Part shown: positions 28,219 to 60,608 of the stretch, in pieces
Layout of the letters: each line of letters begins with the position of its first letter
Position numbering within the stretch: position 1 is the first letter of the stretch
Sequence record: KY963424
DNA length: 64,000 nucleotides
DNA from: Shigella phage SSP1
Reading direction: 5' to 3' (one strand)
The notes under the pieces: model-generated
What the model was told of the DNA's origin: nothing
Databases searched by the model: none
What the model saw: only the letters and a program-made list of their open reading frames with translations
Made by a program: the position numbers and the translations under genes

Positions 28219-28249
28219 ATTTAAACTCCTCTCTCAAATTTATGAATCT

Positions 28250-28278
28250 ATTATACAGAAAAATTTTCCTGAAAGCAA
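28250..28278 (-). promoter_or_regulatory. Early promoter matching T5 PN25 as recalled (TTGCTT-17-TATAAT + ATAAATTTGAGAGAGG box)
   Basis: Reverse complement reads AAAAATTTATTTGCTTTCAGGAAAATTTTTCTGTATAATAGATTCATAAATTTGAGAGAGGAG, which matches the PN25 sequence as I remember it. Confidence 0.8.
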
Positions 28279-28286
28279 ATAAATTT

Positions 28287-28529
28287 TTACGATTCCTTGA
28301 GCAAAGAAGCAAGTTCAGCATAGACTTTATCTAACTCAAAGCCGATGCGAAGAGACACGTTTGTTTTCCGTTGTTTAAGTAACCACTCGGATATGTTAGG
28401 GATGCCAGCTAATCTATGCGGTACCACCCTACATAGCTTTTCCGAAGTGTCGTAAACAGGAACTTTACGTTCTTTTACTGGGAACTTCCTTGTTTCCCAT
28501 TTTTTATTCTTCACTGTCATTTCTAGCAC
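28287..28529 (-). CDS. Hypothetical protein (80 aa)
   Basis: ORF overlapping end of 929-aa gene. Confidence 0.4.
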   Translation of the reverse strand: MLEMTVKNKKWETRKFPVKERKVPVYDTSEKLCRVVPHRLAGIPNISEWLLKQRKTNVSLRIGFELDKVYAELASLLKES

Positions 28530-34808: not shown

Positions 34809-36683
34809 TTATTTAGCTCGAATATCCTGATGTTTCACTCTGCCCATAACCTCGTGCTGTTTGCCGGGGTTAAATGGACGAGCACCCGGATTTCCAAGAT
34901 ACCCACAAACTCGACGAGTTACCTCAAGAGTTTCGGGGTCATGATTACCACAGATAGGGCACTTAAATCCATCTTCGGATGCTATTGTTTCACCTAAGAA
35001 TCCACATTTACCGCAAGAATCCACTGGAGTATTAATACCGAAGTAATGAACTTTACTAGCAGCATAATTAATAACCCATTCCAGTGCATCTGGGAATCGT
35101 TTCATATCTGGTAGTTCTACATAGGAAATGCACCCACCAGAAGCAATCGGAGTGAAATTAGATTCATAATCAAATTTCACGTTAGGAGCAACTTTACGTT
35201 CTACATCAAGGTGGTGAGAGTTAGTGTAGTATCCTTTGGACAGAATATCTTCATGCTCCGGGAAATATTCGCGGTCTAGACGACAAAAACGGTCACATAG
35301 GGATTCTGATGGTGTAGCATACAGGCTATAACCTAATTTAGTTTCTTCCTTCTTCTGATCGACTCTATCCCGCATGTACTGCAATACACGCTGAACAAAC
35401 TTGATGCAGGTCTCGGACATTGTGTCTACATCTTTGCCAAACATAAACTGTAGCATTTCATGGCAACCAATATACCCTAGAGATACAGAAGCACGGTTAT
35501 AGAAATGATCGAATACATACTCATCCGGCTCCAAGCGTAACCCAAAGGCTCCTGACATATAGAGGATGGGTGCAGCTTTAGCTTGAATGTATTTTAAGCG
35601 ATCAACTCTCCACTCCAATGCTTTTAACGCTGTATCCACACGTAGCTCAAGCAAATCAAAGAATAGATCAATATTTCCTTCAGCTTCGATAGCAATTCTA
35701 GGCAAGTTTACAGAAACAACACCTAAGTTATTACGACCGGCAGTTTCACCATCTTCTGTAGCAGCTAGGAATGAACGGCAGCCCATAGAAACTTTATAGT
35801 CACCAGTAACTTCCACAACCTTATCATAGCTGATATAATCTGGATACATACGTTCAGCAGTACATTTCATAGCTAACTTCTTGATGTCATAATTAACATC
35901 TCCTGGTTTCATATTTACGCCATCACGAAGTACAAATACCAGTTTCGGGAAGATAGCTGTACGTTTATTGATACCTAAACCATCCATGCGTACTTTCAGT
36001 ATTGCTTTCTGTACTAGACGTGCTTCCCAAGAAGTTCCTAGACCAAAACCAAAGGTAATAAATGGACTCTGCCCATTAGAGTTGAACATGGTATTGATTT
36101 CATATTCTAAACCCTGACAAGCGTCATAGACTTCTTTTTCAGTCATCTCCGTAGCCATTACGGATGCTTTGGCTTCATCCTTAGTCCAACGTTTTGCAAA
36201 CGCATGATTTTTGTCATAGGATTTACGAACATAAGGGGCTAATACTTCATCAAGGCGATCTACAGAAGTACCACCATACTGATGGGAGCTAACCTGAGTG
36301 ATAATCTGAGCAGTAATAGCCGCCGCAGTAGTGATAGAGTTTGGAGTGCTAATTTCAGCATTACCAACCTTCATGCCATTCTTCAACATATCTTCCAGGG
36401 CCACCAGACAACAGTTAGTCATGCCTAATGCAGCATAATCAGCATCATGGAAATGAATATCCCCAATCATATGAGCATTTCGAATCTGAATTGGCATTTC
36501 TTCTAGAATTAGATACTTACTCAACTCACCTGCAAGCATATCCCTTTGTGTAGGGAAACGTTCTGAGGGTTTATTGGCATTATTAAATAGCAGTTCTTCA
36601 TCTGCTGACCCTTCGATAATCTCTTTGCAGTTTCTAATTAACGCCTGCATTTCTTTATACTTTAGTTCTTCATTACGATTCAT
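34809..36683 (-). CDS. nrdD: Anaerobic ribonucleoside-triphosphate reductase (class III)
   Basis: 624 aa; C-terminal glycyl-radical motif RVCGYLG and Cys4 zinc site CGKCGF...CPICG. Confidence 0.9.
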   Translation of the reverse strand: MNRNEELKYKEMQALIRNCKEIIEGSADEELLFNNANKPSERFPTQRDMLAGELSKYLILEEMPIQIRNAHMIGDIHFHDADYAALGMTNCCLVALEDMLKNGMKVGNAEISTPNSITTAAAITAQIITQVSSHQYGGTSVDRLDEVLAPYVRKSYDKNHAFAKRWTKDEAKASVMATEMTEKEVYDACQGLEYEINTMFNSNGQSPFITFGFGLGTSWEARLVQKAILKVRMDGLGINKRTAIFPKLVFVLRDGVNMKPGDVNYDIKKLAMKCTAERMYPDYISYDKVVEVTGDYKVSMGCRSFLAATEDGETAGRNNLGVVSVNLPRIAIEAEGNIDLFFDLLELRVDTALKALEWRVDRLKYIQAKAAPILYMSGAFGLRLEPDEYVFDHFYNRASVSLGYIGCHEMLQFMFGKDVDTMSETCIKFVQRVLQYMRDRVDQKKEETKLGYSLYATPSESLCDRFCRLDREYFPEHEDILSKGYYTNSHHLDVERKVAPNVKFDYESNFTPIASGGCISYVELPDMKRFPDALEWVINYAASKVHYFGINTPVDSCGKCGFLGETIASEDGFKCPICGNHDPETLEVTRRVCGYLGNPGARPFNPGKQHEVMGRVKHQDIRAK

Positions 36684-36712
36684 TACACCCTCCTTCTCTA
36701 ACTAAGACTACT

Positions 36713-36741
36713 ATTATAACTCATTCGAGGGCGGATGTCAA
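36713..36741 (-). promoter_or_regulatory. Consensus sigma70-like promoter for nrdD (TTGACA-17-TATAAT)
   Basis: Reverse complement TTGACATCCGCCCTCGAATGAGTTATAAT. Confidence 0.6.
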
Positions 36742-36876
36742 TATAATTTTTCTCTTAGATATCGTATTTTGATCTGTGCTAAGAAACTTGATCAGAGTGT
36801 CAAAATTTTATTGACACCACCGTAACTTTTGTATAAGATATACACATAATTTAAGAAATTTGACAAGGAAATAAAA

Positions 36877-37368
36877 ATGAACACTGAAATAACACAAGAC
36901 CTACTAAGAACTTACTTTGACTATAAAGATGGAGAATTGTTTTACAAACCAACTTATAAAACCCCTGCAGGAAGAATATCCAAAAAAGCAGGTAAATCCG
37001 CCAGACTAACTCCGAGTAACGGGTACTATCGTATAAATGTACCAAGAATAGGTGTACAGAAAGAACATAGGATGATTTTCCTATATCATGAAGGATACCT
37101 ACCAGAAGTAGTAGATCATATTGATAGGGATAAGGAAAATAATAGGATAGAGAACCTTAGGGCATCTAATCTTCAGGACAACGCTATTAATCGCTCCATA
37201 AGTAAGAGTAACACCTCTGGCATTGTGGGTGTCCATTATGATGAATCGTATGGTAAGTGGGTTGTAACGTATAGGGGTAAGTACTTTGGAAGATTTGATA
37301 CCAAAGAAGAAGCTGCCGAAGTTAATGCTAATGTTCGTGCCCTTGATCAAACCCGTATAAATAGTTGA
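36877..37368 (+). CDS. HNH homing endonuclease with AP2 DNA-binding domain
   Basis: VDHIDRDKENNRIENLRASNLQDNAIN (HNH) followed by GVHYDESYGKWVVTYRGKYFGRFDTKEEAA (AP2-like). Confidence 0.75.
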   Translation: MNTEITQDLLRTYFDYKDGELFYKPTYKTPAGRISKKAGKSARLTPSNGYYRINVPRIGVQKEHRMIFLYHEGYLPEVVDHIDRDKENNRIENLRASNLQDNAINRSISKSNTSGIVGVHYDESYGKWVVTYRGKYFGRFDTKEEAAEVNANVRALDQTRINS

Positions 37369-37451
37369 TTATCTAGTATCACACATCTCCCGTTAAAAGC
37401 AAGCAAATTTTTTATTTAAATGCAATATCATAGGCTTATTTAAAATTGTAG

Positions 37452-37480
37452 TTGCTTTTTACTGTATATATTGGTATAAT
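37452..37480 (+). promoter_or_regulatory. T5-type early promoter (TTGCTT-17-TATAAT)
   Basis: AAAATTGTAGTTGCTTTTTACTGTATATATTGGTATAAT. Confidence 0.6.
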
Positions 37481-37553
37481 ATATTTGTAAGTTGATAAAC
37501 AAGATCTTTTTGTTGATCCTCTGTTAGCGAAGTACACTATAGGAGTGTTATTT

Positions 37554-42254: not shown

Positions 42255-42784
42255 TAACGGCATTATATGCAGTTGGGCCGAATGGGGAGTTCGGCCTCCG
42301 AGGTAAACTCCCCTGGGGTTCCTTCAAAGAAGAACTAGATGCTTTCTACTCTCAACTGGACGTGTTGAACCCAGATAACATCATCATTGGTGCGGGCACT
42401 TATTTAGCACTTCCAGAAGTTGTTCGGCAACGTATGATTGGAGAATCTGACCTCTTTATTCGTGCGGATCGTCCTCTGCCTGATGATATTAAACATGGTA
42501 TTTACACTCCAATTTCTAAGATTGGGGATACATTACCTACGTTCTTAAAAGATCAACAGACAGTGGTTTTAGGTGGTGCAACATTACTGTACGAAATGTA
42601 TATTCATGGACATATTGAAAGTGCTTTTGTATCAACAATCTTTAGTAATCAAAAACTAGAGGCAGATGTACATCTGGATAATATGATTCTAGATTACAAC
42701 TATGAATCTACTCGTTTAGTTTACGCAACTGGCGCAAACAGTGATAACAGCCTGCGATTTGTACAGGAATTGGTTACTTATTAA
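42251..42784 (+). CDS. Dihydrofolate reductase
   Basis: MITALYAVGPNGEFG...LPW DHFR N-terminal signature; translationally coupled to nrdB and thyA. Confidence 0.85.
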   Translation: MITALYAVGPNGEFGLRGKLPWGSFKEELDAFYSQLDVLNPDNIIIGAGTYLALPEVVRQRMIGESDLFIRADRPLPDDIKHGIYTPISKIGDTLPTFLKDQQTVVLGGATLLYEMYIHGHIESAFVSTIFSNQKLEADVHLDNMILDYNYESTRLVYATGANSDNSLRFVQELVTY

Positions 42785-43623
42785 TGCAACAATATTTAAA
42801 AATTCTAACAGATGTAATTCTACTAGGTGAACCACGTAACGATCGTACAGGAACAGGCACAGTTTCAATTTTTGATTCCTATGCTAAGTTCGACCTACGT
42901 GAAGGATTCCCTGCCGTAACCACTAAACGTCTAGCTTGGAAATCGGTAGTTGGAGAACTCTTATGGTTTTTATCTGGATCTACAAATCTCCATGATCTGC
43001 GAGTATTCACATTTGGGCGTGACGAAGGACAGTGGACTATCTGGACTCCAAATTATGAAGACCAAGCCATAAGCATGGGTTATGACAGGGGTAATCTGGG
43101 GCCAGTATATGGTAAACAATGGCGCAACTTTGGTGGACGAGATCAGATCCTAGAACTCATTGAGGGTCTTAAGAATAATCCACATGGTCGTAGACACCTA
43201 GTATCTGCATGGAACGTTGCCGAACTAGATAAGATGGCACTACCACCATGTCACTATGGTTTCCAGTGTTACGTAAGTAATGATGGATACTTAGATCTTA
43301 AATGGACACAACGTTCTGTAGACTGTTTTCTAGGTCTGCCTTTTAATATTGCTAGCTATGCTTTATTAACACATATCCTGGCAAAACTGACTGGATTAAA
43401 ACCTCGTTATCTCATCTTTAGTGGTGGAGATACACATATTTACAGTGATCATATAGAGCAAGTAGAGGAGCAAATGAAACGTAAACCACGTCCTTTGCCA
43501 ACTCTAGTAATGCCAGAGTTTGTAGATCTCTATGATTTATTAGAGAATAATACTGCGGCTTGGTCCTTCCAACTTGAAGGATATGATCCACATCCCGCTC
43601 TTAAAGCTAAAATGTCCTCTTAA
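42784..43623 (+). CDS. thyA: Thymidylate synthase
   Basis: RNDRTGTGT, catalytic PPCH, and DxxxxxxNxxxY motifs. Confidence 0.9.
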   Translation: MQQYLKILTDVILLGEPRNDRTGTGTVSIFDSYAKFDLREGFPAVTTKRLAWKSVVGELLWFLSGSTNLHDLRVFTFGRDEGQWTIWTPNYEDQAISMGYDRGNLGPVYGKQWRNFGGRDQILELIEGLKNNPHGRRHLVSAWNVAELDKMALPPCHYGFQCYVSNDGYLDLKWTQRSVDCFLGLPFNIASYALLTHILAKLTGLKPRYLIFSGGDTHIYSDHIEQVEEQMKRKPRPLPTLVMPEFVDLYDLLENNTAAWSFQLEGYDPHPALKAKMSS

Positions 43624-43627
43624 CTTA

Positions 43628-43650
43628 AGTAGCCCTTCGGGGCTATTATA
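43628..43650 (+). terminator. Intrinsic terminator after thyA
   Basis: AGCCC-TTCG-GGGCT hairpin followed by ATTATATTT. Confidence 0.6.
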
Positions 43651-43693
43651 TTTGAAATTGTACTTGCTTATTAAGTACAATTTCAAATATAAT
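43651..43693 (+). promoter_or_regulatory. Early promoter embedded in a 15-17 bp perfect inverted repeat (TTGCTT-18-TATAAT)
   Basis: TTTGAAATTGTACTTGCTTATTAAGTACAATTTCAAATATAAT; the two arms are exact reverse complements flanking the -35. Confidence 0.55.
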
Positions 43694-43722
43694 ATACTCA
43701 ATAAGTACAAAAGGATAATAAA

Positions 43723-44106
43723 ATGAGTAAAGAAATTGAATTAGAACAAGCCCTTCTGAATTACTCCAATTACTTGCAGGGTGATAAAGAAACTATTACT
43801 AAGGAACAGGTATTATTAATACTAGACTCTATCACTTCTAAATTCAGGACTTTAGAAGACTACTACTCTGTAGGCAATGGAGATGAGAAGGTAGAGTTAT
43901 GTCTAAATCTCCTAGAAGATATGGGTTGGGATGAGGAAGATCAAGTAGGGTATTTAGGTATATCTACAGAAATTCTAGAAAATACAGAGCATGAAAATAT
44001 ACTTGAAGTAAAGAGCAGAAGTGCTATTCGATATAATACTTATGGTACAGGTATTACAGGAATAAAAGCATTACTTAGTATAGACATAGGATGGTTAGAT
44101 GAGTAA
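43723..44106 (+). CDS. Hypothetical protein (127 aa)
   Basis: ORF with GGATAA RBS-like sequence. Confidence 0.5.
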   Translation: MSKEIELEQALLNYSNYLQGDKETITKEQVLLILDSITSKFRTLEDYYSVGNGDEKVELCLNLLEDMGWDEEDQVGYLGISTEILENTEHENILEVKSRSAIRYNTYGTGITGIKALLSIDIGWLDE

Positions 44107-44647
44107 AAAGTTACCTAGCCAAGAAAGATTAAAAGAAATACTAATCTATGATCCAGATACTGGTATATTTACTAATAAGGTAAGTCGTGGTAGGGGAGGA
44201 AAAGCAGGTTCGCCAGCTGGATACCTAAGAAAAGATGGCTATATAACTATTAAGATAGATAAAATAGATTATTTAGCGCATAGGTTAGCCTTTCTATACA
44301 TGACAGGATCAATACCTGATTTAATAGACCACAAAAATAGAATTAGGTCAGATAATAGGTGGATAAATCTAAGAGAAGCTACAAGCCAGTCTAATAACAG
44401 AAATTGTACCGCATCGAGTAAATCTGGATATCTAGGTGTACACTGGAACAAACAACTACAGAAATGGCAAGTACAGGTGATTGATAATAATGGTAAAAAT
44501 ATTTACGGGGGTGTTTTTGATTACTTAGACCTAGAAAGTGCGGTCATAAAGGCTAATGAACTAAGAAAAACACTTCATGGTAGCGAAGCAGTTATAGAAG
44601 ATTTCTATACCAACTATTACCCACCAATAGAGGAACTTAATAAGTGA
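44099..44647 (+). CDS. HNH homing endonuclease with AP2 domain
   Basis: DHKNRIRSDNRWINLREATSQSNNRN (HNH) and GVHWNKQLQKWQVQVIDNNGKNIYGGVFD (AP2-like). Confidence 0.75.
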   Translation: MSKKLPSQERLKEILIYDPDTGIFTNKVSRGRGGKAGSPAGYLRKDGYITIKIDKIDYLAHRLAFLYMTGSIPDLIDHKNRIRSDNRWINLREATSQSNNRNCTASSKSGYLGVHWNKQLQKWQVQVIDNNGKNIYGGVFDYLDLESAVIKANELRKTLHGSEAVIEDFYTNYYPPIEELNK

Positions 44648-45120
44648 GCGTTTTCCACATTTACACAGATGGTGCTTGTAAGTCTAACCCAGGTCCAGGT
44701 GCTTGGGGTTTTATTGTTTATGATGATAACGACGATCGTTTAGGTTCTAAATCTGGTTATAATCCTAAAACTACAAATAATGAGATGGAACTCACAGCTA
44801 TTGTAGAAGCTTTACGTTGGTCTGTTAAAAAAGATAATAGACCAATTGCTATCTATACTGACTCTGCTTATTGCAAAAATGGCATGGAAAGTTGGATGTT
44901 TTCTTGGCAAAGGAAAGGCTGGAAGAAAGCAGATGGTGAAGTTCCTCTTAATCTAGAACTTTGGCAGGAAGCATTTAAATTAACACAGCAGTATATCAAC
45001 TTTCATAATACTAATCCTACCTTTATTAAGGTTAAAGGACATTCTGGTATTAGTGGTAATGAAGCTGTAGATGCATTGTGTAATACTGTTATTACTGAAG
45101 CTGAAATGGCTGAGATGTAA
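44644..45120 (+). CDS. Ribonuclease H
   Basis: IYTDGACKSNPGPGAWG...TNNEMEL...YTDS...H motifs of RNase HI. Confidence 0.8.
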   Translation: MSVFHIYTDGACKSNPGPGAWGFIVYDDNDDRLGSKSGYNPKTTNNEMELTAIVEALRWSVKKDNRPIAIYTDSAYCKNGMESWMFSWQRKGWKKADGEVPLNLELWQEAFKLTQQYINFHNTNPTFIKVKGHSGISGNEAVDALCNTVITEAEMAEM

Positions 45121-49010: not shown

Positions 49011-49393
49011 TAATTTAAAAGCTAGTAAATCGGTAGACGAAAGCCCAAGCATCTTACCTCGCAGCAGCGGTTGAAATACGAGGTTAAATAGGACCGCTGA
49101 CCATACTATAAAGTATAATCTATTGGAGATTATGTTTATTACACCAGCCTTTTAAGCTGACACGTAAGAACAAAGCGTCGTTGATATTACCGACACAACT
49201 TCAAAGATCAACATTTAAGTATGAAAGCTGAAAAGTTTAAAGAACTCAAACTTCTAAACTTCTAAAGCTAAAAGATGCAAAGTATTCGTTGATGATTCAA
49301 ACCCTAGATCAAAGGTACATGGCTCATAAGATATGGCCTGTGGCGCCTCTAGGCTGTTTATCGGTTTACTAGTTTCACAATTTAAAAATGTAT

Positions 49394-49422
49394 TTGCTAA
49401 TCTACTAAATTATATGTATAAT
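49394..49422 (+). promoter_or_regulatory. T5-type early promoter (TTGCTA-17-TATAAT)
   Basis: AAAAATGTATTTGCTAATCTACTAAATTATATGTATAAT. Confidence 0.65.
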
Positions 49423-49452
49423 ATATTTTTAAATTGATGAAACGAGGCTATT

Positions 49453-55289: not shown

Positions 55290-55378
55290 GGAAGAATAGC
55301 ATAACGGTATTGCAGCAGATTGCTAATCTGTCGGTTTGAAATATAGCCTTGTGGGTTCGATTCCCACTTCTTCCGCCA
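55290..55378 (+). tRNA. tRNA-Ser(GCT), type II
   Basis: Acceptor GGAAGAA/TTCTTCC, anticodon loop TTGCTAA, long variable arm, T-arm GTGGG-TTCGATT-CCCAC, encoded CCA. Confidence 0.8.
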
Positions 55379-55384
55379 GATTTT

Positions 55385-55462
55385 GGTTCTCAAGCTCATA
55401 TGGTATGAGCACCCGGCTCATAACCGGAAGGTACGTAGGTTCGAATCCTCGGGGAGCCACCA
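55385..55462 (+). tRNA. tRNA with CAT anticodon (Met or Ile2)
   Basis: Acceptor GGTTCTC/GGGAGCC (with G-U pairs), D-stem GCTC/GAGC, anticodon loop CTCATAA, T-loop TTCGAAT with imperfect stem, CCA encoded. Confidence 0.6.
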
Positions 55463-55480
55463 GTTAAATAGAGGTCACAA

Positions 55481-55669
55481 ATGGATCTATATATAGTTTA
55501 TGTTGTGTTTATTCAAGATAGAGAATACCCGGATGAATATAAAAAAGGATATAGGTTAGCCAGAGCTACCTCTGTAGCCCAAGCTATGGATAAAGTGGCA
55601 GATTATATGATTACGGTAGAAAACGTACACTATATCGACTACCTTGAAGCCTCAAAAGTAATTGACTAA
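55481..55669 (+). CDS. Hypothetical protein (62 aa)
   Basis: ORF immediately after tRNA; weak RBS. Confidence 0.4.
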   Translation: MDLYIVYVVFIQDREYPDEYKKGYRLARATSVAQAMDKVADYMITVENVHYIDYLEASKVID

Positions 55670-55678
55670 GGAGACTAT

Positions 55679-55864
55679 ATGTCTAAGTTTCAAGAACTCA
55701 AGCAAGAGCTAGAAGAATGTGCCTGCCCCGAATGTAGGGGAATTGGTGAAAGTTCTGATGCAGAAGCAGGAGATACTTTTTGCAATATCTGGGTTTGCTC
55801 AAATTGCAATGGTACAGGTATTAATCCTAACTGCGGTATTTCCCTAGATATTGAACGAGGATAA
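55679..55864 (+). CDS. Small Cys-rich (zinc-ribbon-like) protein (61 aa)
   Basis: CPECRG...CSNCNGTG two CxxC pairs; AGGAGACTATATG RBS. Confidence 0.45.
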   Translation: MSKFQELKQELEECACPECRGIGESSDAEAGDTFCNIWVCSNCNGTGINPNCGISLDIERG

Positions 55865-55965
55865 TACCTGTGAAACTAAAAGATTATTATATTGGTTGGT
55901 TTGTAGGATTAGTAGTAGGATTTTCACTAGGCTATAATATGTATCAACTAATAAACTGATTACAT

Positions 55966-56042
55966 GGGGGTGTAATCGAATTGGCATAGGTACTGGACTT
56001 AAAATTCAGGTTTTGTGGGTTCGAATCCCACCACCCCTACCA
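55966..56042 (+). tRNA. tRNA with anticodon TAA (Leu-type anticodon) but short variable arm
   Basis: Acceptor GGGGGTG/CACCCCT, anticodon arm CTGGA-CTTAAAA-TTCAG, T-arm GTGGG-TTCGAAT-CCCAC, CCA encoded; D-arm non-canonical. Confidence 0.55.
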
Positions 56043-56057
56043 AATTAAGGAAATAAG

Positions 56058-56225
56058 ATGTATAGACATCCACCTCCGCCAACACGTCGTTCTAGAGAAG
56101 TTATTCTCATGGAATTGACTAAAAACTTCAAGGCAACCCTTGAAGATAGAGATCTAGGCACGGATGAAGACATTGATTTTATTTGTAGACTATTAAAGAT
56201 GAAACTGGAGAAACAACATGGCTAA
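56058..56225 (+). CDS. Hypothetical small protein (55 aa)
   Basis: AAGGAAATAAGATG RBS right after tRNA; below ORF-track cut-off. Confidence 0.35.
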   Translation: MYRHPPPPTRRSREVILMELTKNFKATLEDRDLGTDEDIDFICRLLKMKLEKQHG

Positions 56226-56424
56226 TCCTGAAATTACCGCACAACGCTTCATGCTTAAAGGCATGATTGCTGAGGCAGGTATAACTCAAGAGGTTGCAGA
56301 TTTTCATAAGCAATTTCTTGATATTATAACTCTAGCTAAAGAGACTGGAGAAAAAGAGCACGGAGCAGCAATTATGGCTATATCTCTTATTAGTCTAGAC
56401 TTGGCTGAAGAATCTGGAGTTTAG
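56218..56424 (+). CDS. Hypothetical protein (68 aa)
   Basis: ORF overlapping previous stop. Confidence 0.4.
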   Translation: MANPEITAQRFMLKGMIAEAGITQEVADFHKQFLDIITLAKETGEKEHGAAIMAISLISLDLAEESGV

Positions 56425-56454
56425 CTCCTCCAAACAGAATTTTTAAAAATGTAC

Positions 56455-56484
56455 TTGCCTTTTGCTTTAAATTTCTGATATAAT
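56455..56484 (+). promoter_or_regulatory. T5-type early promoter (TTGCCT-18-TATAAT)
   Basis: AAAAATGTACTTGCCTTTTGCTTTAAATTTCTGATATAAT. Confidence 0.55.
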
Positions 56485-56514
56485 AGTTATATAAATTGAT
56501 GAAGGAGTTAACGA

Positions 56515-56790
56515 ATGCAAAATCGTGTTATAGCTGCTGGTATTGAAAGTGCAATCTGTAAATCCTGGGAAGGCTGGGAAGGTGAGATTGAATGGCTTTA
56601 TTTCTACGATGTAGAACTTCTGCCGGAAATTAAAGCTAAATGTGTTGAAGCTGGCATGGCTCCAGATGCAAAAGCTGATATTGATATTTCAATGTCTGAA
56701 CTTAAAGGTCGTGTAATCACTGTTAGTGATGAGGGTGAAGAAGTTTTTGAACTTCCGTTCTCCTTAACTGTCACTCCTAAGTTCGACTAG
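56515..56790 (+). CDS. Hypothetical acidic protein (91 aa)
   Basis: GAAGGAG RBS. Confidence 0.45.
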   Translation: MQNRVIAAGIESAICKSWEGWEGEIEWLYFYDVELLPEIKAKCVEAGMAPDAKADIDISMSELKGRVITVSDEGEEVFELPFSLTVTPKFD

Positions 56791-56826
56791 CTAATACAGC
56801 ATTGGGCAAGTTCTTTAAAATTTGAC

Positions 56827-56855
56827 TTGCTCAGTGCCTTAAAACTTGATATAAT
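56827..56855 (+). promoter_or_regulatory. T5-type early promoter (TTGCTC-17-TATAAT) upstream of tRNA-Tyr
   Basis: AAAATTTGACTTGCTCAGTGCCTTAAAACTTGATATAAT. Confidence 0.6.
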
Positions 56856-56979
56856 AGTTATCTAATTTGGAAACATATCTGAATGAGAAGTAATTAAGCG
56901 AGTTGCTTTGAGGGGTAAAGTCAGGAAATCCTGAAATATTCCACCTTGAGTTTAACCGACTTACTTTTCATTCAAATAT

Positions 56980-57060
56980 GAGGGATTGGCTCAGTGGCGA
57001 CGGCGCCTGGCTGTAGACCGGGTATATCACGCGGAGGTTCGAGTCCTCCATCCCTCACCA
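56980..57060 (+). tRNA. tRNA-Tyr(GTA)
   Basis: Acceptor GAGGGAT/ATCCCTC perfect, anticodon arm CCTGG-CTGTAGA-CCGGG, extended variable region, T-arm GGAGG-TTCGAGT-CCTCC, CCA encoded. Confidence 0.7.
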
Positions 57061-57078
57061 AATTACTAAGGAAGTAAT

Positions 57079-57624
57079 ATGCACAATAAGTTAATAAATG
57101 AGCTTCAAAAAAGACAAATAATAACAAAAACTAAGGAGTTTGATATAACTCCAGATTTAATAGTTGAATGTTCAAAAGTTTACTTAGAATTAAGTAACAC
57201 AAAAGCTAAGAAAGTCTCTTTAGGGGATCTTAGATATAACGTTAAACTATTGTGCTTATCATTAATTAAATTTAAACAGGAAAATAAACTTGCTATAAAA
57301 GAAGGCTTCATATATTTTATAGCAAATAAGGCCTGGCCCAATTATTTTAAGATTGGTATGTCAGCTAACCCAAAGAAACGCTTAGCGAACTATCAAACAT
57401 ATAGCCCCTTTAGGGATTATACAATGCTACACTGGTCTTTCTGGTTTGATAGAAAGGAAGGTGAAAAGTTTGTCCATAGTCTCTATCATGATAGAGATCA
57501 TGAATGGGTTAAGTTGCCTCAAAGAAAACTAAATAAAATATTTGAACAAATTAATAAACTTTCTGGTTTGGAACATTTAGTACAGAAAGTTAATAGAGAA
57601 ATAGTTAATGCACCTATCGTCTAA
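57079..57624 (+). CDS. T5orf172/GIY-YIG-like domain protein (mobile-element-type)
   Basis: GFIYFIANKAWPNYFKIGMSANPKKRLANYQTYSP resembles the T5orf172 (GIY-YIG-related) signature; AT-rich codon usage; stop overlaps tRNA-Glu 5' end. Confidence 0.55.
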   Translation: MHNKLINELQKRQIITKTKEFDITPDLIVECSKVYLELSNTKAKKVSLGDLRYNVKLLCLSLIKFKQENKLAIKEGFIYFIANKAWPNYFKIGMSANPKKRLANYQTYSPFRDYTMLHWSFWFDRKEGEKFVHSLYHDRDHEWVKLPQRKLNKIFEQINKLSGLEHLVQKVNREIVNAPIV

Positions 57625-57684
57625 TGGTTAGGACATCAGGATTTCAATCTGAGAATCGGAGTTCAATTCTCCGTGGGTGTACCA
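57610..57684 (+). tRNA. tRNA-Glu(TTC)
   Basis: Acceptor GCACCTA/TGGGTGT (two G-U), D-stem GTC/GAC, anticodon arm TCAGG-ATTTCAA-TCTGA, T-arm CGGAG-TTCAATT-CTCCG, CCA encoded. Confidence 0.75.
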
Positions 57685-57692
57685 GTTTCTGC

Positions 57693-57769
57693 ATTCCTAG
57701 AGTGTTACTGGACAGCATGTCGGTCTCCAAAACCGTACGGTCTAGGTTCGAGTCCTAGTAGGTTTGCCA
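57693..57769 (+). tRNA. tRNA-Trp(CCA)-like (acceptor stem with two U-U mismatches)
   Basis: Anticodon arm CGGT-CTCCAAA-ACCG, D-stem GTGT/GCAT, T-arm CTAGG-TTCGAGT-CCTAG, CCA encoded; acceptor ATTCCTA/TAGGTTT pairs only 5 of 7. Confidence 0.5.
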
Positions 57770-57775
57770 AAATTT

Positions 57776-57850
57776 GCACCTTTAGCTGAGATGGATTAGC
57801 GCTTGCCTGAAGAGCTTGAGAGGTTCGTTCGATACGAACAGGGTGCACCA
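57776..57850 (+). tRNA. tRNA-Phe(GAA)-like
   Basis: Acceptor GCACCTT/AGGGTGC, D-stem GCTG/TAGC, anticodon loop CTGAAGA (stem has two U-U), T-arm GTTCG-TTCGATA-CGAAC, CCA encoded. Confidence 0.6.
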
Positions 57851-57852
57851 AT

Positions 57853-58140
57853 TTGAATGAGCTGCTGATGCATCCTGAAAACTTCTTTATTTACTGCGCG
57901 GATAAGTCGCTGAAACGTAGAATTAACAAAGTCTATCATTATCGTGCTAGTCAACAGCCTTATGTATATGCTTTTGACGGTGATCACATTCCACTAGAAC
58001 AATTATCTTGTGATTACATGATATTGAAGAACTTTGACGAGACGAAGATCTCAAGCGTTCATAATCGACAGAATCCATTAACGTGGAAATATAAGAAGAA
58101 AAAGAAAGGCATCAAATTCTTAAAAAATGTAGTTGCTTAG
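57853..58140 (+). CDS. Hypothetical protein (95 aa)
   Basis: ORF following tRNA block; 3' end overlaps a promoter; weak evidence. Confidence 0.35.
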   Translation: MNELLMHPENFFIYCADKSLKRRINKVYHYRASQQPYVYAFDGDHIPLEQLSCDYMILKNFDETKISSVHNRQNPLTWKYKKKKKGIKFLKNVVA

Positions 58141-58161
58141 TTTCCAAAAGTTCTGTATAAT
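58133..58161 (+). promoter_or_regulatory. T5-type early promoter (TTGCTT-17-TATAAT)
   Basis: AAAAATGTAGTTGCTTAGTTTCCAAAAGTTCTGTATAAT + ACATAAATTGAACTGGAG. Confidence 0.6.
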
Positions 58162-58190
58162 AATTACATAAATTGAACTGGAGAAGCAAC

Positions 58191-58415
58191 ATGACAGAAC
58201 AAGAATTGAATGAACGTAAGCTGGTAATGCTTCGCTTACTAAATATTTTCTCTGGTATGGACGGTGGAATTGACTTTGTTCATCTACGTTCTTTCGTAGA
58301 AGAAGCCGAAGGCGAATCTATCACTAAAATCCTTAAACACATGGGATTACTTTTAGATGCTGCTAATGTGGCTACTGAATATAAACTAGAAGATCTACCG
58401 AAGCGTGTTAAATGA
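58191..58415 (+). CDS. Hypothetical protein (74 aa)
   Basis: Start MTEQEL with GGAGAAGCAACATG RBS. Confidence 0.45.
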   Translation: MTEQELNERKLVMLRLLNIFSGMDGGIDFVHLRSFVEEAEGESITKILKHMGLLLDAANVATEYKLEDLPKRVK

Positions 58416-58603
58416 GAAAGTTAGTTAAATTTAAGTGTTGTGGTTCTGAACATATTTTCACACATCTTCGTGAATTTAAAATGTGTGATTGTGGTAAATC
58501 AGGCTATGACTCAGGAGATGGGTTCTACACCCGTACTCTAGGGAACTTCAATGATCTAGAATTTGAAGATCTCGAAAAACAAGATAAATCGACCGTTGGC
58601 TGA
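58412..58603 (+). CDS. Small Cys-containing protein (63 aa)
   Basis: Translationally coupled; CCGSEH...CDCGKSG; stop overlaps tRNA-Cys 5' end. Confidence 0.4.
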   Translation: MRKLVKFKCCGSEHIFTHLREFKMCDCGKSGYDSGDGFYTRTLGNFNDLEFEDLEKQDKSTVG

Positions 58604-58665
58604 ATGGCTTAGGCGAAGGATTGCAAATCCTTTTTATGTGAGTTCAAATCTCATGCGGTCGTCCA
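58590..58665 (+). tRNA. tRNA-Cys(GCA)
   Basis: Acceptor CGACCGT/GCGGTCG, anticodon arm AAGGA-TTGCAAA-TCCTT, T-arm GTGAG-TTCAAAT-CTCAT, CCA encoded. Confidence 0.75.
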
Positions 58666-58667
58666 AT

Positions 58668-58808
58668 TTGCTGAAAGAATTGTTAAATCAATTCAGGCAC
58701 GCGTAGGAACACTGTCTCCGCAATTGAAAGATGAGGCACGGTTTGGAGAGGTATGCCGCTACACGCTACGGTGCTAACTCCGTCTAGGTGAAAATCCTAG
58801 TCAGCAAT
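58668..58808 (+). ncRNA. 141-nt tRNA-like structured RNA (perfect 7-bp terminal stem, T-arm-positioned hairpin, long insertion)
   Basis: 5' TTGCTGA pairs perfectly with 3' TCAGCAA; hairpin CTAGG-TGAAAAT-CCTAG immediately precedes the 3' strand; no ORF. Confidence 0.35.
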
Positions 58809-58817
58809 ATAAATTTA

Positions 58818-58900
58818 GGGTCGTTAGCCAAGCGGTTTGGCGGTGGACTGTTAATCCATGTCGAAAGACAACGTAGGTTCGAATCCTACACGGCCCGCCA
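58818..58900 (+). tRNA. tRNA with Asn-type anticodon arm (GTT) but extended 13-nt variable arm
   Basis: Acceptor GGGTCGT/ACGGCCC, D-stem GCC/GGC, anticodon arm GTGGA-CTGTTAA-TCCAT (close to the E. coli tRNA-Asn arm as recalled), variable GTCGAAAGACAAC, T-arm GTAGG-TTCGAAT-CCTAC, CCA encoded. Confidence 0.6.
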
Positions 58901-59002
58901 AATTCTGTGTAGAGTTAAGTAAACCGGTAGCCAACCAGCTATCATTGCTGATATCGAATTCAGCCACAGATACCATTTTCATTAATAACTGAGGAAACAA
59001 GC

Positions 59003-59188
59003 ATGTCCAAGAATGTAATTGCACAGTTAGAAGTTCATCGTGATAGCACTATCAACAATATTGAAGTTGAGAAGAAATACATAGAAGAACTTAAACACGA
59101 TATACTAGTAAGTCTCAATCGTCTTAATGTACGAAAAGAGTTTCTTAAAGAACTTAATGCAGCTATTGAAAAACTCAAAGCTGAGTAA
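59003..59188 (+). CDS. Hypothetical coiled-coil protein (61 aa)
   Basis: GAGGAAACAAGCATG RBS. Confidence 0.45.
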   Translation: MSKNVIAQLEVHRDSTINNIEVEKKYIEELKHDILVSLNRLNVRKEFLKELNAAIEKLKAE

Positions 59189-59195
59189 ATGAATT

Positions 59196-59777
59196 ATGCA
59201 CGGAATATTTTTACCTATTCCTATGTTTGATGAATATCTGGTAAGTCTAGATGGGTTAGTGTTCAGTATTAAATCAAATAAAATACTAACCCCAATAACT
59301 AGTAATTATGGATATGTATCTGTACGCCTACATCATAACGGTAGGCAAAGAAATACTGGTATACATAGAATCATAGCATGTGCCTTTAAAAGGTTACCTA
59401 GTTTAGACTCTGTACTAGAGGTTGATCATATTGATACAGATATCACCTATTGGGGATTAAATAATCTACAAGTCCTTACTAAAGAACAGCATTTAGAAAA
59501 AACCCTGAAAGATAAGGGCTATAATAAACTAATACATAATAAACAGTGTAGTATATGTGGTGAACCTATATCACTGAAAGCAGATAAGTGTCAAAAATGC
59601 TCATCACATAAACTGAAAGATCCATCTATTACTAAAGAAATAATAGAATCTACTGTAAAAGAGTTAGGATGGTCTGGTGCTGGAAGAAGATTATCTTATT
59701 CTGATAACGGGTTAAGAAAACGTTATAAAGCATTAGGTGGTGATCCAAAAGAATTAAAAAAGTTAAAGGTACTATAG
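59196..59777 (+). CDS. HNH homing endonuclease (NUMOD4-like N-terminus + HNH)
   Basis: IHRIIACAF...EVDHIDTDITYWGLNNLQVLTKEQHLEKT HNH core; paralog of 62914..63474 with shared C-terminal SGAGRRLSYSDNGLRKRYKALGG; stop overlaps tRNA-Asp. Confidence 0.7.
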   Translation: MHGIFLPIPMFDEYLVSLDGLVFSIKSNKILTPITSNYGYVSVRLHHNGRQRNTGIHRIIACAFKRLPSLDSVLEVDHIDTDITYWGLNNLQVLTKEQHLEKTLKDKGYNKLIHNKQCSICGEPISLKADKCQKCSSHKLKDPSITKEIIESTVKELGWSGAGRRLSYSDNGLRKRYKALGGDPKELKKLKVL

Positions 59778-59842
59778 TCTAACGGTTAGGATACTCCCCT
59801 GTCACGGGAGAGGTAGGGTTTCGATTACCCTTAGTACCGCCA
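59768..59842 (+). tRNA. tRNA-Asp(GTC)
   Basis: Acceptor GGTACTA/TAGTACC perfect, anticodon arm CTCCC-CTGTCAC-GGGAG, T-arm AGGGT-TTCGATT-ACCCT, CCA encoded. Confidence 0.8.
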
Positions 59843-59868
59843 AACTAAACTAGCACGAGAAATATGCT

Positions 59869-60216: not shown

Positions 60217-60220
60217 TAAA

Positions 60221-60329: not shown

Positions 60330-60338
60330 CAATCAAAC

Positions 60339-60459: not shown

Positions 60460-60469
60460 ACACTATAAA

Positions 60470-60592: not shown

Positions 60593-60608
60593 TTTATTAA
60601 AAATTCAT

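What the first reader, a model, noticed from the sequence alone, without database searches (positions are those of the whole stretch)
43651..43693. Perfect 15-17 bp inverted repeat wrapped around the -35 of an early promoter
TTTGAAATTGTACTT-GCTTATT-AAGTACAATTTCAAA: the arms are exact reverse complements and the -35 TTGCTT sits at the centre. None of the other promoters in this family show this. It could be an operator for a repressor or activator, or a hairpin that modulates read-through from thyA.
Basis: seen in the sequence. Interest (0 to 1): 0.4.

Follow-up and report, generated by a model that had tools for sequence, protein, structure and literature searches.

The report
Conserved hairpin wrapped around phage promoter
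A perfect 22-base-pair hairpin-forming repeat encloses the early promoter downstream of the thymidylate synthase gene of this T5-like phage. It is kept by compensating mutations across the whole phage family, so it is most likely a sense-strand RNA stem-loop that acts only on transcripts that escape the upstream terminator, not a repressor site.

Summary
The arms are 22 nt, perfectly complementary (43644-43665 / 43673-43694), with a 7-nt loop. The longest such repeat in simulated sequence is 10-13 nt. The window is a T5-like phage (Tequintavirus).

The repeat lies just after the thyA GC-rich terminator hairpin and encloses a T5 early promoter. The -35 TTGCTT sits at the loop and the -10 TATAAT at the base of the 3' arm. 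None of the 20 other family promoter-like sites in the window folds comparably (-24.8 vs -0.3 to -7.4 kcal/mol).

Eighteen haplotypes in T5-like phages keep the pairing through compensatory substitutions and a compensated indel. The same architecture, with different arm sequences, occurs at the same junction (nucleotide-metabolism operon to rnh operon) in Yersinia, Klebsiella, Pantoea, Vibrio and Proteus Demerecviridae.

Mismatches are mostly G·U on the sense strand. The Pantoea version is stable only as sense-strand RNA.

This argues against a dyad operator and weakens the cruciform reading. Best reading: a stem-loop present only in thyA read-through RNA, acting as a back-up terminator, an RNase III site or an exonuclease barrier. 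Which of these applies is untested. I rate it a new variant of overlapping promoter-terminator cassettes.

The parts
42784..43623 (+). thyA (thymidylate synthase), last gene of the nrdB-frd-thyA operon. Its read-through transcripts are the only RNAs that would contain the hairpin.
   Evidence: ORF list. 97-100% identical to T5-like ThyA, annotated as thymidylate synthase in relatives.
43630..43653 (+). T1: GC-rich terminator hairpin TAGCCC-TTCG-GGGCTA (43630-43645) plus an interrupted T-tract TTATATTT (43646-43653). Its last two stem bases and its T-tract are also the start of the palindrome's left arm.
   Evidence: Sequence. The homologous hairpin is annotated as a rho-independent terminator (ARNold) in Bf23. 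Relatives keep the stem, for example NR01 GCCGC-TTCG-GCGGC. The in-house scan misses it because it extends the stem greedily into the T-tract.
43644..43665 (+). Left (5') arm of the palindrome. It is also the T1 T-tract and the A/T-rich upstream element of the promoter (-57 to -36).
   Evidence: The inner part, TTTGAAATTGTAC, matches the family upstream element, for example TTTGAAATTTTAC at 41036.
43666..43672 (+). Loop GCTTATT. Together with TT 43664-43665 it forms the -35 hexamer TTGCTT (43664-43669).
   Evidence: The loop is invariant apart from one T/C position in the 18 T5-like haplotypes of the alignment. Yersinia phiR2-01 has GCTAATT.
43673..43694 (+). Right (3') arm of the palindrome. 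It comprises the promoter spacer, the -10 TATAAT (43688-43693) and one more base.
43664..43701 (+). T5-type sigma-70 early promoter: TTGCTT, 18-nt spacer, TATAAT. The start site is inferred at about 43700-43701, so its own transcripts contain neither arm.
   Evidence: Member of a family of 21 sites in the window that includes a PN25-like sequence. The homologous T5 segment is annotated 'promoter' in AY543070 and in Bf23. The start site is inferred from the usual spacing, not measured.
43652..43681 (+). Second promoter-like match inside the palindrome (TTGAAA-18-TACAAT), with mirror-image matches on the minus strand (43686-43657 and 43674-43645).
   Evidence: In T5 itself the same site is TTGAAA-18-TATAAT, 11 of 12 matches. 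Function not tested.
43695..43722 (+). Discriminator and leader. A mosaic breakpoint lies at about 43696-43697: homology to most relatives ends here. The T-rich tail present in relatives (TATATTTTAT) is replaced here by TACTCAATAAG.
   Evidence: H36-H40 end at query position 397, which is window 43696. Alignments.
43723..45120 (+). Genes driven by the promoter here: a 127-aa ORF of unknown function (43723-44106), HNH endonuclease hegE (44099-44647) and RNase H rnh (44644-45120).
   Evidence: PHROG 26840 (unknown function), HNH_3 PF13392 and RNase_H PF00075. In T5 the promoter drives rnh directly.

Best explanation
The palindrome encodes a sense-strand RNA stem-loop of about 22 bp. It is built from the promoter's own upstream element (5' arm) and its spacer plus -10 (3' arm), with the -35 left unpaired in the loop.

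The promoter's start site lies about 6 nt beyond the 3' arm. RNAs initiated at this promoter therefore never contain the hairpin. Only RNAs that read through the weak thyA terminator (T1, whose T-tract is the first part of the 5' arm) fold it.

The element therefore marks and acts on read-through transcripts. I infer that it insulates the nucleotide-metabolism operon from the rnh operon. Three mechanisms are possible:
- a second, fail-safe terminator or pause, in relatives where it is followed by UAUAUUUUAU;
- a substrate for RNase III, since the helix is about 22 bp;
- a barrier to 3' exonucleases.

Shown here:
- the structure exists;
- its pairing, not its sequence, is conserved across Demerecviridae at this one junction;
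- it is sense-strand biased;
- it coexists with an intact sigma-70 promoter.

Inferred, not shown:
- that read-through RNA exists;
- which enzyme or step the hairpin affects.
For: 1. Pairing is maintained.
- 18 haplotypes in T5-like phages keep 19-23 pairs.
- Compensatory double changes occur at pairs 11, 17 and 18. Pair 20 goes C-G to U-G to U-A with the intermediate observed, and pair 17 goes G-C to G-U to A-U. There is also a 1-nt deletion in both arms.
- 96.9% of cells are paired, against 37-47% when partners are slid. The covariation score is 0.193 against 0.118±0.010 in shuffles, 0 of 500 reaching it.

2. Positional orthologues have different arm sequences.
- They occur in Yersinia phiR2-01, Klebsiella K7_rec7, Pantoea AAS21, Vibrio AG74 and Proteus RP7.
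- Each is 19-22 pairs, with the -35 at the loop, the -10 at the base of the 3' arm and a 17-nt spacer.
- Each follows a GC-rich hairpin (a tetraloop in four of the five), directly or, in AG74, about 30 nt downstream.
- 6-9 pairs differ on both sides from the window, by ungapped base-anchored indexing.
- In RP7 the -10 is GATAAT and the far end of the 5' arm covaries to TTATC.
- All five have RNA z-scores of -5.5 to -7.0 on the sense strand.

3. The structure is strand specific.
- There are 28 G·U cells on the sense strand against 4 on the antisense, and 96.9% against 90.7% of cells paired.
- Sense RNA is more stable than antisense in 21 of 23 sequences, with 1 tie and 1 reversal. Examples: Pantoea -16.0 vs -4.5, phiR2-01 -15.3 vs -7.6, T5 -21.8 vs -13.7 kcal/mol.
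- With DNA parameters the Pantoea hairpin is not better than shuffles (-2.5 kcal/mol, z -1.25).

4. The geometry fits.
- The 5' arm begins at the last two bases of T1, and the 3' arm ends at -10+1.
- The T1 tail is TTATATTT, against the 9-bp stem followed by TTTTTCTTT in the equivalent cassette at 41010.

5. It is unique. It is the only promoter of 21 in the window that folds like this, and no comparable AT-rich promoter hairpin was found in the rest of the closest genome, Lindwurm.

6. In PH204, which has the same palindrome, the stem plus TATATTTTAT fits the terminator-like pattern. The Lindwurm record annotates the palindrome as 'terminator'.

7. A double-stranded region of 22 nt is the quoted minimum RNase III target size (PMC5371410).
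Against: - No transcript data were available, so read-through of T1 is assumed.
- In this window the tail after the hairpin (UACUCAAU) is not U-rich, so the back-up-terminator version cannot apply here as it might in PH204 or T5.
- U-richness after the stem is part of the promoter-family consensus and is not conserved across genera.
- The stem length of about 20-22 bp may simply follow from promoter geometry (loop at -35, base at -10). It need not reflect an RNase III requirement.
- The G·U bias is modest when counted as inferred events: about 10-11 against 3, binomial p about 0.03-0.05 by my own count.
- Some G·U-creating changes in T5 also improve an internal -10-like hexamer (TACAAT to TATAAT). 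They may be selected for that reason.
- With DNA parameters both strands of the T5-like versions fold about equally, so DNA-level structure is not excluded for these phages.
- Klebsiella phage vB_Kpn_3 has a promoter without a palindrome at the same place, so the element is dispensable in at least one phage.
Confidence: 0.5

Rival explanations
1. DNA-level switch. Under negative supercoiling the AT-rich perfect palindrome extrudes as a cruciform. That puts the -35 in a loop and the -10 in a stem, and so shuts the promoter off. RNA polymerase binding and extrusion would compete with each other.
For: The repeat here is perfect, AT-rich and has a short loop. Both DNA strands fold equally well (-18.0 and -18.2 kcal/mol, z about -10.6 to -11). 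The promoter is centred exactly on the dyad. A synthetic precedent exists: the cruciform-regulated promoter of Horwitz and Loeb 1988 (from memory).
Against: A cruciform needs both strands to fold. Mismatches in relatives are mostly G·T on the sense strand, which means A·C on the other strand. With DNA parameters the Pantoea orthologue does not fold better than shuffles on either strand, and phiR2-01 and AG74 reach only about -7 kcal/mol. T5 virion DNA is linear and nicked (PMC10644984), which does not favour stable supercoiling.
Confidence: 0.12
2. No selected function. The repeat is a quasi-palindrome that arose by inverted duplication of promoter sequence. It is kept symmetrical by template-switch (intrastrand templated) mutation and by overlapping constraints: the T-tract of T1, the A/T-rich upstream element, the AAATTT-type spacer and the -10.
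For: Family promoter elements are partly self-complementary: upstream GAAAATTT against spacer AAATTTC. Template switching is known to correct quasi-palindromes (from memory). One phage lacks the element.
Against: Twenty other promoters with the same consensus elements fold at -7.4 kcal/mol or weaker. Stepwise G·U intermediates are observed (C-G, U-G, U-A and G-C, G-U, A-U), which is the pattern of point mutation plus selection, not one-step templated correction. The architecture persists at the same junction in at least six lineages with 6-9 pairs changed on both sides. The sense-strand bias is unexplained by this model.
Confidence: 0.12
3. Recombination or module-junction element. The palindrome, or the conserved terminator-promoter cassette that contains it, serves as the crossover point for exchanging downstream gene modules between co-infecting T5-like phages.
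For: Homology to most of the 133 related records ends at 43696, the right edge of the palindrome. At least four unrelated modules follow the same cassette, and a different thyA allele precedes it in BUCT632 and LVR16A. This is analogous to PeSL cassettes in T4-like phages (PMC2839356, PMC4122927).
Against: Any conserved cassette would give such breakpoints without needing a hairpin. This model explains neither the compensatory changes nor the strand bias. Whether other promoters are equally frequent breakpoints was not compared.
Confidence: 0.08
4. Dyad-symmetric operator. A phage-encoded or host dimeric protein binds the two arms and represses or activates this early promoter.
For: Dyad symmetry centred on a promoter is typical of operators. 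Terminator palindromes can double as transcription-factor sites (LexA at yobI/ruvA, bioRxiv 10.64898/2026.08.19.745784).
Against: Half-site sequence is not conserved while complementarity is. 22-nt perfect arms are far longer than operator half-sites. No second copy exists in the window or in the genome. The G·U-type asymmetry has no meaning for duplex recognition. The downstream ORF cannot be a cognate autoregulator because the palindrome is present in phages that lack it.
Confidence: 0.06
5. Replication or R-loop element. The hairpin would form on the displaced sense DNA strand or in the transcript. It would stabilise an R-loop or primer at this promoter, giving a transcription-primed origin or an RNase H-coupled control in front of rnh.
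For: The element keeps a fixed position in front of the rnh operon in all genera examined. It is sense-strand specific. Promoter plus AT-rich element is the layout of the T7 and T4 origins and of ColE1 (from memory).
Against: The GC-skew minimum and strand switch is at about 37 kb, not here. The Pantoea hairpin is not stable as DNA. There is no experimental link.
Confidence: 0.04

Closest known systems
Promoter-coupled terminators (Fletcher, Forrest, Grainger et al., bioRxiv 10.64898/2026.08.19.745784)
   Same: A terminator and the next promoter share the same DNA between tandem genes. The stem-loop DNA overlaps the -35, and the T-tract contributes to the promoter. Polymerase bound at the promoter can affect termination.
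   Different: In the described class a GC-type stem is followed by a T-tract in the spacer and then the -10, with the termination site about 10 bp upstream of the start site. Here a separate GC hairpin comes first. A second, AT-rich stem of about 22 bp spans the whole promoter, with the -10 inside the stem and any T-run downstream of the -10.
PeSL (promoter-early stem-loop) cassettes of T4-like phages (PMC2839356, PMC4122927)
   Same: A composite terminator plus early sigma-70 promoter cassette lies between early genes and coincides with insertion, deletion and replacement junctions.
   Different: PeSLs are short GC stem-loops next to a promoter and are repeated many times per genome. Here the distinctive part is a single-copy long hairpin that encloses the promoter itself. 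It occurs in a different phage family.
Phage RNase III sites: lambda sib/tI retroregulator and T7 early-mRNA processing sites
   Same: These are long RNA helices between genes. In lambda sib, the full helix forms only in transcripts that read through a terminator, so read-through and terminated RNAs are treated differently (from memory). Phage targets of RNase III and the 22-nt minimum duplex are cited in PMC5371410.
   Different: No cleavage has been shown here. The proximal and distal box features were not examined. Those sites do not have a promoter built into the helix.
T5 early promoter family (PN25, P25, P26, PH207 and others)
   Same: TTGCTT -35, TATAAT -10, an A/T-rich upstream block and the same host sigma-70 polymerase. 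Twenty other sites are in the window, including a PN25-like sequence at about 28278 on the minus strand.
   Different: The spacer is 18 nt (17 in most of the family). The discriminator here is ATACT instead of the ATATT noted for early promoters (PMC7472727). It lacks the ATAAATT downstream motif in this window, and it is the only one enclosed in a hairpin.
Cruciform-regulated promoters and single-strand promoters (Horwitz and Loeb synthetic bla promoter; F plasmid Frpo; M13 minus-strand origin; N4 early promoters)
   Same: Promoter elements are embedded in an inverted repeat (from memory).
   Different: Those act as DNA structures. Here the comparative data favour RNA. In the hairpin form the -35 would be single-stranded in the loop, unlike Frpo and M13, where both boxes are in the stem.

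Membership tests
T5-type sigma-70 early promoter | -35 TTGCTT/TTGCTA, 17±1-nt spacer, -10 TATAAT | tested here: met
   TTGCTT 43664-43669, 18-nt spacer, TATAAT 43688-43693. The homologous site is annotated as a promoter in T5 and Bf23.
T5-type sigma-70 early promoter | A/T-rich upstream block (AAAAATTT-like) | tested here: met
   TTTGAAATTGTAC, compared with TTTGAAATTTTAC at 41036 and the family list.
T5-type sigma-70 early promoter | ATATT discriminator and ATAAATT motif in the initial transcribed region | tested here: not met
   The window has ATACTCAATAAG. Relatives with other downstream modules have ATATTTTATAAATT. The ATATT consensus is from PMC7472727.
Intrinsic (rho-independent) terminator, applied to the 22-bp hairpin | Stable stem-loop directly followed by a U-rich tract | tested here: not met
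   The window tail TACTCAAT has 3 T in 8, and the pattern scan makes no call. In PH204 the same stem plus TATATTTTAT is called terminator-like. Lindwurm annotates it as a terminator.
Intrinsic (rho-independent) terminator, applied to the 22-bp hairpin | G+C-rich stem, especially at its base | tested here: not met
   Only 3 G-C pairs in 22, and the base of the stem is entirely A-U.
Promoter-coupled terminator (Fletcher et al. 2026) | Stem-loop DNA overlaps the -35 of the downstream promoter | tested here: met
   The -35 lies at the junction of the left arm and the loop.
Promoter-coupled terminator (Fletcher et al. 2026) | T-tract in the spacer just upstream of the -10; termination site about 10 bp upstream of the start site | tested here: not met
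   The T1 T-tract is upstream of the -35. The spacer is the 3' arm. Any T-run lies after the -10. RNA ends cannot be tested here.
PeSL-like mobile regulatory cassette | Terminator stem-loop plus early promoter at the borders of variable gene modules | tested here: met
   The cassette 43624-43696 is conserved while both flanks are replaced in relatives.
PeSL-like mobile regulatory cassette | Many near-identical copies per genome that recombine with each other | tested here: not met
   The palindromic version is single-copy. Ordinary terminator-promoter cassettes do recur.
RNase III processing site | Double-stranded RNA of about two helical turns (22 nt or more) | tested here: met
   22 Watson-Crick pairs plus 1 G·U here, and 19-23 pairs in relatives. 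The threshold is quoted in PMC5371410.
RNase III processing site | Cleavage by RNase III; absence of antideterminant pairs in the proximal and distal boxes | not testable with these tools
   Needs an in vitro cleavage assay or a comparison of rnc mutant and wild-type hosts.
Dyad-symmetric operator | Half-site sequence conserved among relatives | tested here: not met
   Arms vary at 12 of 22 pairs among T5-like phages, with pairing preserved. 6-9 pairs are changed on both sides in other genera.
Dyad-symmetric operator | Further copies of the site at co-regulated promoters | tested here: not met
   With up to 3 mismatches there are 10 matches against 5.15 expected by chance. All matches other than the two arms themselves have 1-3 mismatches, and those compared with the promoter list lie in promoter upstream elements, without a paired arm. 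There is one match per T5-like contig.
Dyad-symmetric operator | A cognate DNA-binding protein | not testable with these tools
   The downstream ORF has no Pfam domain and is absent from many phages that keep the palindrome.
Cruciform-forming promoter | Both strands able to form the hairpin, across relatives | tested here: inconclusive
   Met in the window and in T5. Not met in Pantoea, and weak in phiR2-01 and AG74, with DNA parameters.
Any Rfam RNA family | Score at or above the gathering threshold | tested here: not met
   Only sub-threshold matches to eukaryotic microRNA-precursor hairpin models, 27 bits or less against thresholds of 54-195.

The most novel reading that the evidence does not exclude
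The hairpin is not only an RNA insulator. It marks a transcription-primed replication start or an RNase H-coupled control point. The sense-strand hairpin would stabilise an R-loop or primer made at or through this promoter, and the RNase H encoded just downstream would process it. That would explain why the element sits in front of the rnh operon in every Demerecviridae genus examined.
Probability: 0.04. Interest if true: 0.85.

Novelty: new variant of a known kind. Interest (0 to 1): 0.52.

Why it matters
T5 early promoters are textbook strong promoters and are widely used in expression vectors, but I found no description of one enclosed in a conserved hairpin.

If the reading is right, Demerecviridae use a compact design. 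The promoter's own flanks form an RNA helix that exists only in transcripts arriving from upstream. Read-through RNA and locally initiated RNA are then handled differently without any extra sequence.

This would extend the recent idea of coupled promoters and terminators to a new geometry. It would give a directly testable case of post-transcriptional insulation between phage operons. It would also offer a small part for synthetic insulators.

The same cassette is the junction at which at least four alternative gene modules and two thyA alleles are exchanged. It is therefore also relevant to how these phages shuffle genes.

Tried and rejected
- Rfam scan of 43000-44300 at a permissive E-value: only sub-threshold eukaryotic microRNA-precursor hairpin matches.
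- Half-site search in the window: the matches compared with the promoter list lie in the generic upstream element of family promoters, and none has a paired arm.
- Metagenome scan with the left arm plus -35 pattern: 64 hits, mostly chance AT-rich matches. A few T5-like contigs added haplotypes.
- Literature searches for T5 transcript-end maps, or for any mention of this palindrome: nothing found.
- Nick sites in T5/BF23 DNA: no positional information near thy.
- Replication-origin idea tested through GC skew: the minimum is at about 37 kb, where gene orientation switches, not at 43.6 kb.
- Minus-strand mirror promoter (TTAATA-18-TATAAT), which would make antisense thyA RNA: considered and set aside. 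Its -35 lies in the loop, which is not symmetric, and that sequence varies in relatives.
- Autoregulation by the downstream 127-aa ORF: rejected, because the palindrome is present where that ORF is absent.
- The MAFFT alignment of haplotypes put the two compensating gaps out of register. I re-made it with N placeholders so that the true partners face each other.
- The built-in terminator scan does not call T1 because it extends the stem with G·T and A·T pairs into the T-tract. The ARNold annotation in Bf23 was used instead.
- I did not build a covariance model or a structural alignment across genera. The cross-genus comparison is base-anchored and ungapped, so some 'both sides changed' pairs may be register shifts of both arms.
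Full report
**What is in the sequence**

The window is a T5-like phage. A 900-bp query around the finding matches 133 phage records, all Tequintavirus-type. The best are Lindwurm and fp01 at about 97%.

- thyA ends at 43623.
- It is followed by a GC-rich hairpin with a UUCG loop, TAGCCC-TTCG-GGGCTA (43630-43645), and an interrupted T-tract TTATATTT. I call this T1. The homologous hairpin is annotated as a rho-independent terminator in the Bf23 record.
The arms are 43644-43665 and 43673-43694, 22 nt each and 100% complementary, with a 7-nt loop.
- The -35 TTGCTT (43664-43669) straddles the end of the left arm and the loop. The -10 TATAAT (43688-43693) is the outer end of the right arm, with an 18-nt spacer.
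- The start site, inferred from the usual spacing, is near 43700. Transcripts from this promoter would therefore contain neither arm.
- Downstream lie a 127-aa ORF of unknown function, an HNH endonuclease and RNase H.

**Is it more than chance?**

- It is the longest short-range inverted repeat in the 64 kb. In 40 Markov simulations of the window the longest perfect repeat with a loop of 60 nt or less was 10-13 nt.
- Folding z-scores are -8.7 for RNA in context and about -10.6 to -11 for DNA on either strand.
- The promoter belongs to a family of 21 TTGCTW-N16-18-TATAAT sites in the window, which includes a PN25-like sequence.
- The family's upstream A/T block and spacer are slightly self-complementary. 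Even so, the equivalent segments of the other 20 sites fold at only -0.3 to -7.4 kcal/mol, against -24.8 here.
- In the parts of the closest genome (Lindwurm) that lie outside the window, no comparable AT-rich promoter hairpin was found. The left arm plus -35 pattern occurs once per T5-like contig.

**Comparative evidence within T5-like phages**

I collected the junction from IMG/VR, metagenome and GenBank phage records. This gave 18 distinct haplotypes of the 49-51-nt element. All keep 19-23 pairs.

Two main sequence families differ at pairs 11, 17 and 18 by changes on both sides: G-C to A-U, G-C to U-A, and U-A to C-G. One family has lost one base from each arm.

Within the first family two stepwise paths are visible:
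- C-G (window), U-G (NBSal005 type), U-A (NR01) at pair 20;
- G-C (window), G-U (T5), A-U (DT571/2 type) at pair 17.

The formal counts on the alignment are as follows.

| Measure | Observed | Control |
|---|---|---|
| Cells paired | 96.9% | 37-47% when partners are slid by 1-3 columns |
| Cells changed on both sides | 19 | 7.7±2.1 in shuffles (0 of 500 reach it) |
| Covariation score | 0.193 | 0.118±0.010 in shuffles (0 of 500 reach it) |

The shuffle control ignores relatedness, so these numbers are supportive rather than decisive.

**Comparative evidence across genera**

This is the strongest result. I looked upstream of rnh in more distant Demerecviridae.

| Phage | Left arm | Loop | Right arm | Note |
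|---|---|---|---|---|
| Yersinia phiR2-01 | TATTATATTTAAATTTTATTT | GCTAATT | GAGTAGAATTTAAATATAATA | |
| Klebsiella K7_rec7 | TTATATTAAAAATTCAT | TTGCAAACCAC | GTGAATTTTTAATATAA | |
| Pantoea AAS21 | GTTATACCAAAGTTTTATTTGC | TAA | GTAAGTAGAATTTTGATATAAT | |
| Vibrio AG74 | TGTTATATAAAAATCTTCTTG | CTATTT | CGAGAGAATTTTTATATAATA | |
| Proteus RP7 | TATTATCTCAAATATTTTA | GTTGACATCTTG | TAGAATATTTGAGATAATA | -35 is TTGACA, -10 is GATAAT |

- In every case there is a GC-rich hairpin first (a tetraloop in four of the five). It is directly adjacent to the left arm, or about 30 nt upstream in AG74.
- Next comes an AT-rich stem of 19-22 pairs, with the -35 at the loop, the -10 at the base of the 3' arm and a 17-nt spacer.
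- In RP7 the -10 is GATAAT, and the far end of the 5' arm has changed to TTATC to match it.
- Relative to the window, 6-9 pairs differ on both sides while pairing is kept. This uses ungapped indexing from the base of the stem, so some of these may be register shifts of both arms.
- In each 4-6.5-kb locus this is the top or near-top inverted repeat.
- All five sense-strand RNAs have z-scores of -5.5 to -7.0.

There are informative exceptions:
- Klebsiella vB_Kpn_3 carries a promoter without a palindrome at that place.
- Two Vibrio phages solve the junction differently. In one a GC hairpin wraps the -35. In the other a GC hairpin encloses the -10, the start site and the ribosome-binding site.

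**Which molecule folds?**

- Non-Watson-Crick cells are mostly G·U on the sense strand: 28 cells at 8 pairs, against 4 cells at 3 pairs on the antisense strand.
- Counting inferred events gives about 10-11 G·U-type against 3 A·C-type. By my own count the binomial p is about 0.03-0.05.
- Sense RNA is more stable than antisense RNA in 21 of 23 sequences, with 1 tie and 1 reversal. Examples: Pantoea -16.0 vs -4.5, phiR2-01 -15.3 vs -7.6, T5 -21.8 vs -13.7 kcal/mol.
- With DNA parameters the Pantoea hairpin is no better than shuffled sequence (z -1.25), and phiR2-01 and AG74 reach only about -7 kcal/mol.
- With DNA parameters the T5-like versions fold about equally on both strands.

The family-wide constraint therefore fits sense-strand RNA best. 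DNA structure is not excluded for the T5-like phages themselves.

**Interpretation**

A dyad operator is unlikely.
- Pairing is conserved, not sequence.
- The arms are far longer than operator half-sites.
- There is no second site.
- Strand bias has no meaning for duplex recognition.

A cruciform switch remains possible here, but it fits the distant orthologues poorly.

The best-supported reading is an RNA stem-loop that exists only in thyA read-through transcripts. It is assembled from sequence that also has to be a promoter.
- The -35 is left in the loop because it need not pair.
- The complement of the -10 (ATTATA) doubles as the T-rich tail of T1.

What the hairpin does to that RNA is inferred, and there are three candidates.
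- **Fail-safe terminator.** In PH204 the identical stem is followed by TATATTTTAT and fits a terminator-like pattern, and the Lindwurm record annotates it as a terminator. In this window the tail is TACTCAAT, and the T-run is not conserved across genera.
- **RNase III substrate.** A duplex of 22 nt is the quoted minimum target size (PMC5371410). Cleavage would turn read-through RNA into approximately the same two RNAs as termination plus re-initiation. However, the stem length could simply follow from promoter geometry.
- **3' exonuclease barrier.**

I commit to 'read-through-specific RNA insulator' at about 0.5. I cannot rank the sub-mechanisms firmly.

**Relation to known systems**

- The nearest concepts are promoter-coupled terminators (bioRxiv 10.64898/2026.08.19.745784) and the PeSL terminator-promoter cassettes of T4-like phages (PMC2839356, PMC4122927).
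- Neither has this geometry: a second, long AT-rich helix that spans the whole promoter, single-copy, and conserved in position.
- Lambda sib/tI is a functional analogue for a helix that is complete only in read-through RNA (from memory).
- No Rfam family matches.
- No paper I could search describes the element.
- I therefore rate it a new variant of a known kind.

**Mosaic context**

- Only 32 of the 133 related records cover at least 80% of the query. In several relatives (H36-H40) the match ends at 43696, the right edge of the palindrome.
- At least four unrelated modules follow the same cassette, and in T5 it drives rnh directly.
- BUCT632 and Epseptimavirus LVR16A carry a different thyA allele upstream of the same cassette.
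- The cassette is thus a shared junction for module exchange. Whether the hairpin contributes to that exchange is unknown.

Noticed in passing
window 43696-43697 and 43621; loci L003, L008, L009/L179, L177, L180: The terminator-palindrome-promoter cassette is a mosaic junction. At least four unrelated downstream modules follow it: 127-aa ORF plus HNH; a roughly 93-aa ORF; direct rnh in T5; and an MGLF... ORF. Two different thyA alleles (840 and 855 nt) precede it.
   Followed up: partly
window 49378-49436: A second promoter (TTGCTA at 49394) is flanked by a 17-nt, 94% inverted repeat (CAATTTAAAAATGTATT / AATATATTTTTAAATTG). It pairs the promoter's upstream element with its discriminator and initial transcribed region. 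It is all A/T and weak, and its conservation was not checked.
   Followed up: no
window about 28230-28290, minus strand: A sequence resembling the classic T5 PN25 promoter as I recall it (AAAAATTTATTTGCTTTCAGGAAAATTTTTCTGTATAATAGATTCATAAATTTGAGAGAGGAG) is present. The window holds 21 TTGCTW-N16-18-TATAAT sites: 7 on the minus strand up to about 34.8 kb and 14 on the plus strand from about 37.4 kb.
   Followed up: partly
window about 35000-37500: Early transcription diverges here (last minus-strand promoter at 34766, first plus-strand promoter at 37452). The cumulative GC skew has its minimum here too.
   Followed up: no
L179 2671-2700 (T5); window 43652-43681: Inside the palindrome T5 has a second, near-consensus promoter match, TTGAAA-18-TATAAT (11 of 12). 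The window has TTGAAA-18-TACAAT. The substitutions that create G·U pairs in T5 also create this TATAAT.
   Followed up: no
L187 about 3190-3250 (Vibrio phage VspSw_1, thy to next gene): A GC-rich hairpin with a core 16-bp stem (AAAAGCCCTCAATTCC ... GGAATTGAGGGCTTTT) encloses the -10 and the predicted start site. Its 3' arm holds the ribosome-binding site and is followed by TTTT. Only upstream transcripts would fold it, so this looks like a promoter inside a terminator.
   Followed up: no
L186 about 2855-2900 (Vibrio phage 70E37.6, thyA to next gene): A 12-bp hairpin with a UUCG loop carries the -35 TTGCTT in its stem and loop. It is followed by TTTT in the spacer and then TATAAT. This is the promoter-coupled-terminator geometry described by Fletcher et al.
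   Followed up: no
L181 about 2150-2215 (Klebsiella phage vB_Kpn_3): At the position where its relative K7_rec7 has the palindromic promoter, this phage has a promoter whose printed sequence matches the PN25-like site in the window (about 28278, minus strand). This suggests promoter replacement by recombination.
   Followed up: no
window 55290-63538: There are 18 tRNA genes on the plus strand, interspersed with early-type promoters. For example, tRNA-Lys ends at 61304, just upstream of the promoter at 61323.
   Followed up: partly
L190 24294-24344, 25415-25466 and 27638-27690 (Lindwurm pre-early region, outside the window): Three imperfect inverted repeats of 22-23 nt (78-87% complementary) that contain G and C lie around the A1/A2 genes. 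They differ in kind from the AT-rich promoter palindrome.
   Followed up: no
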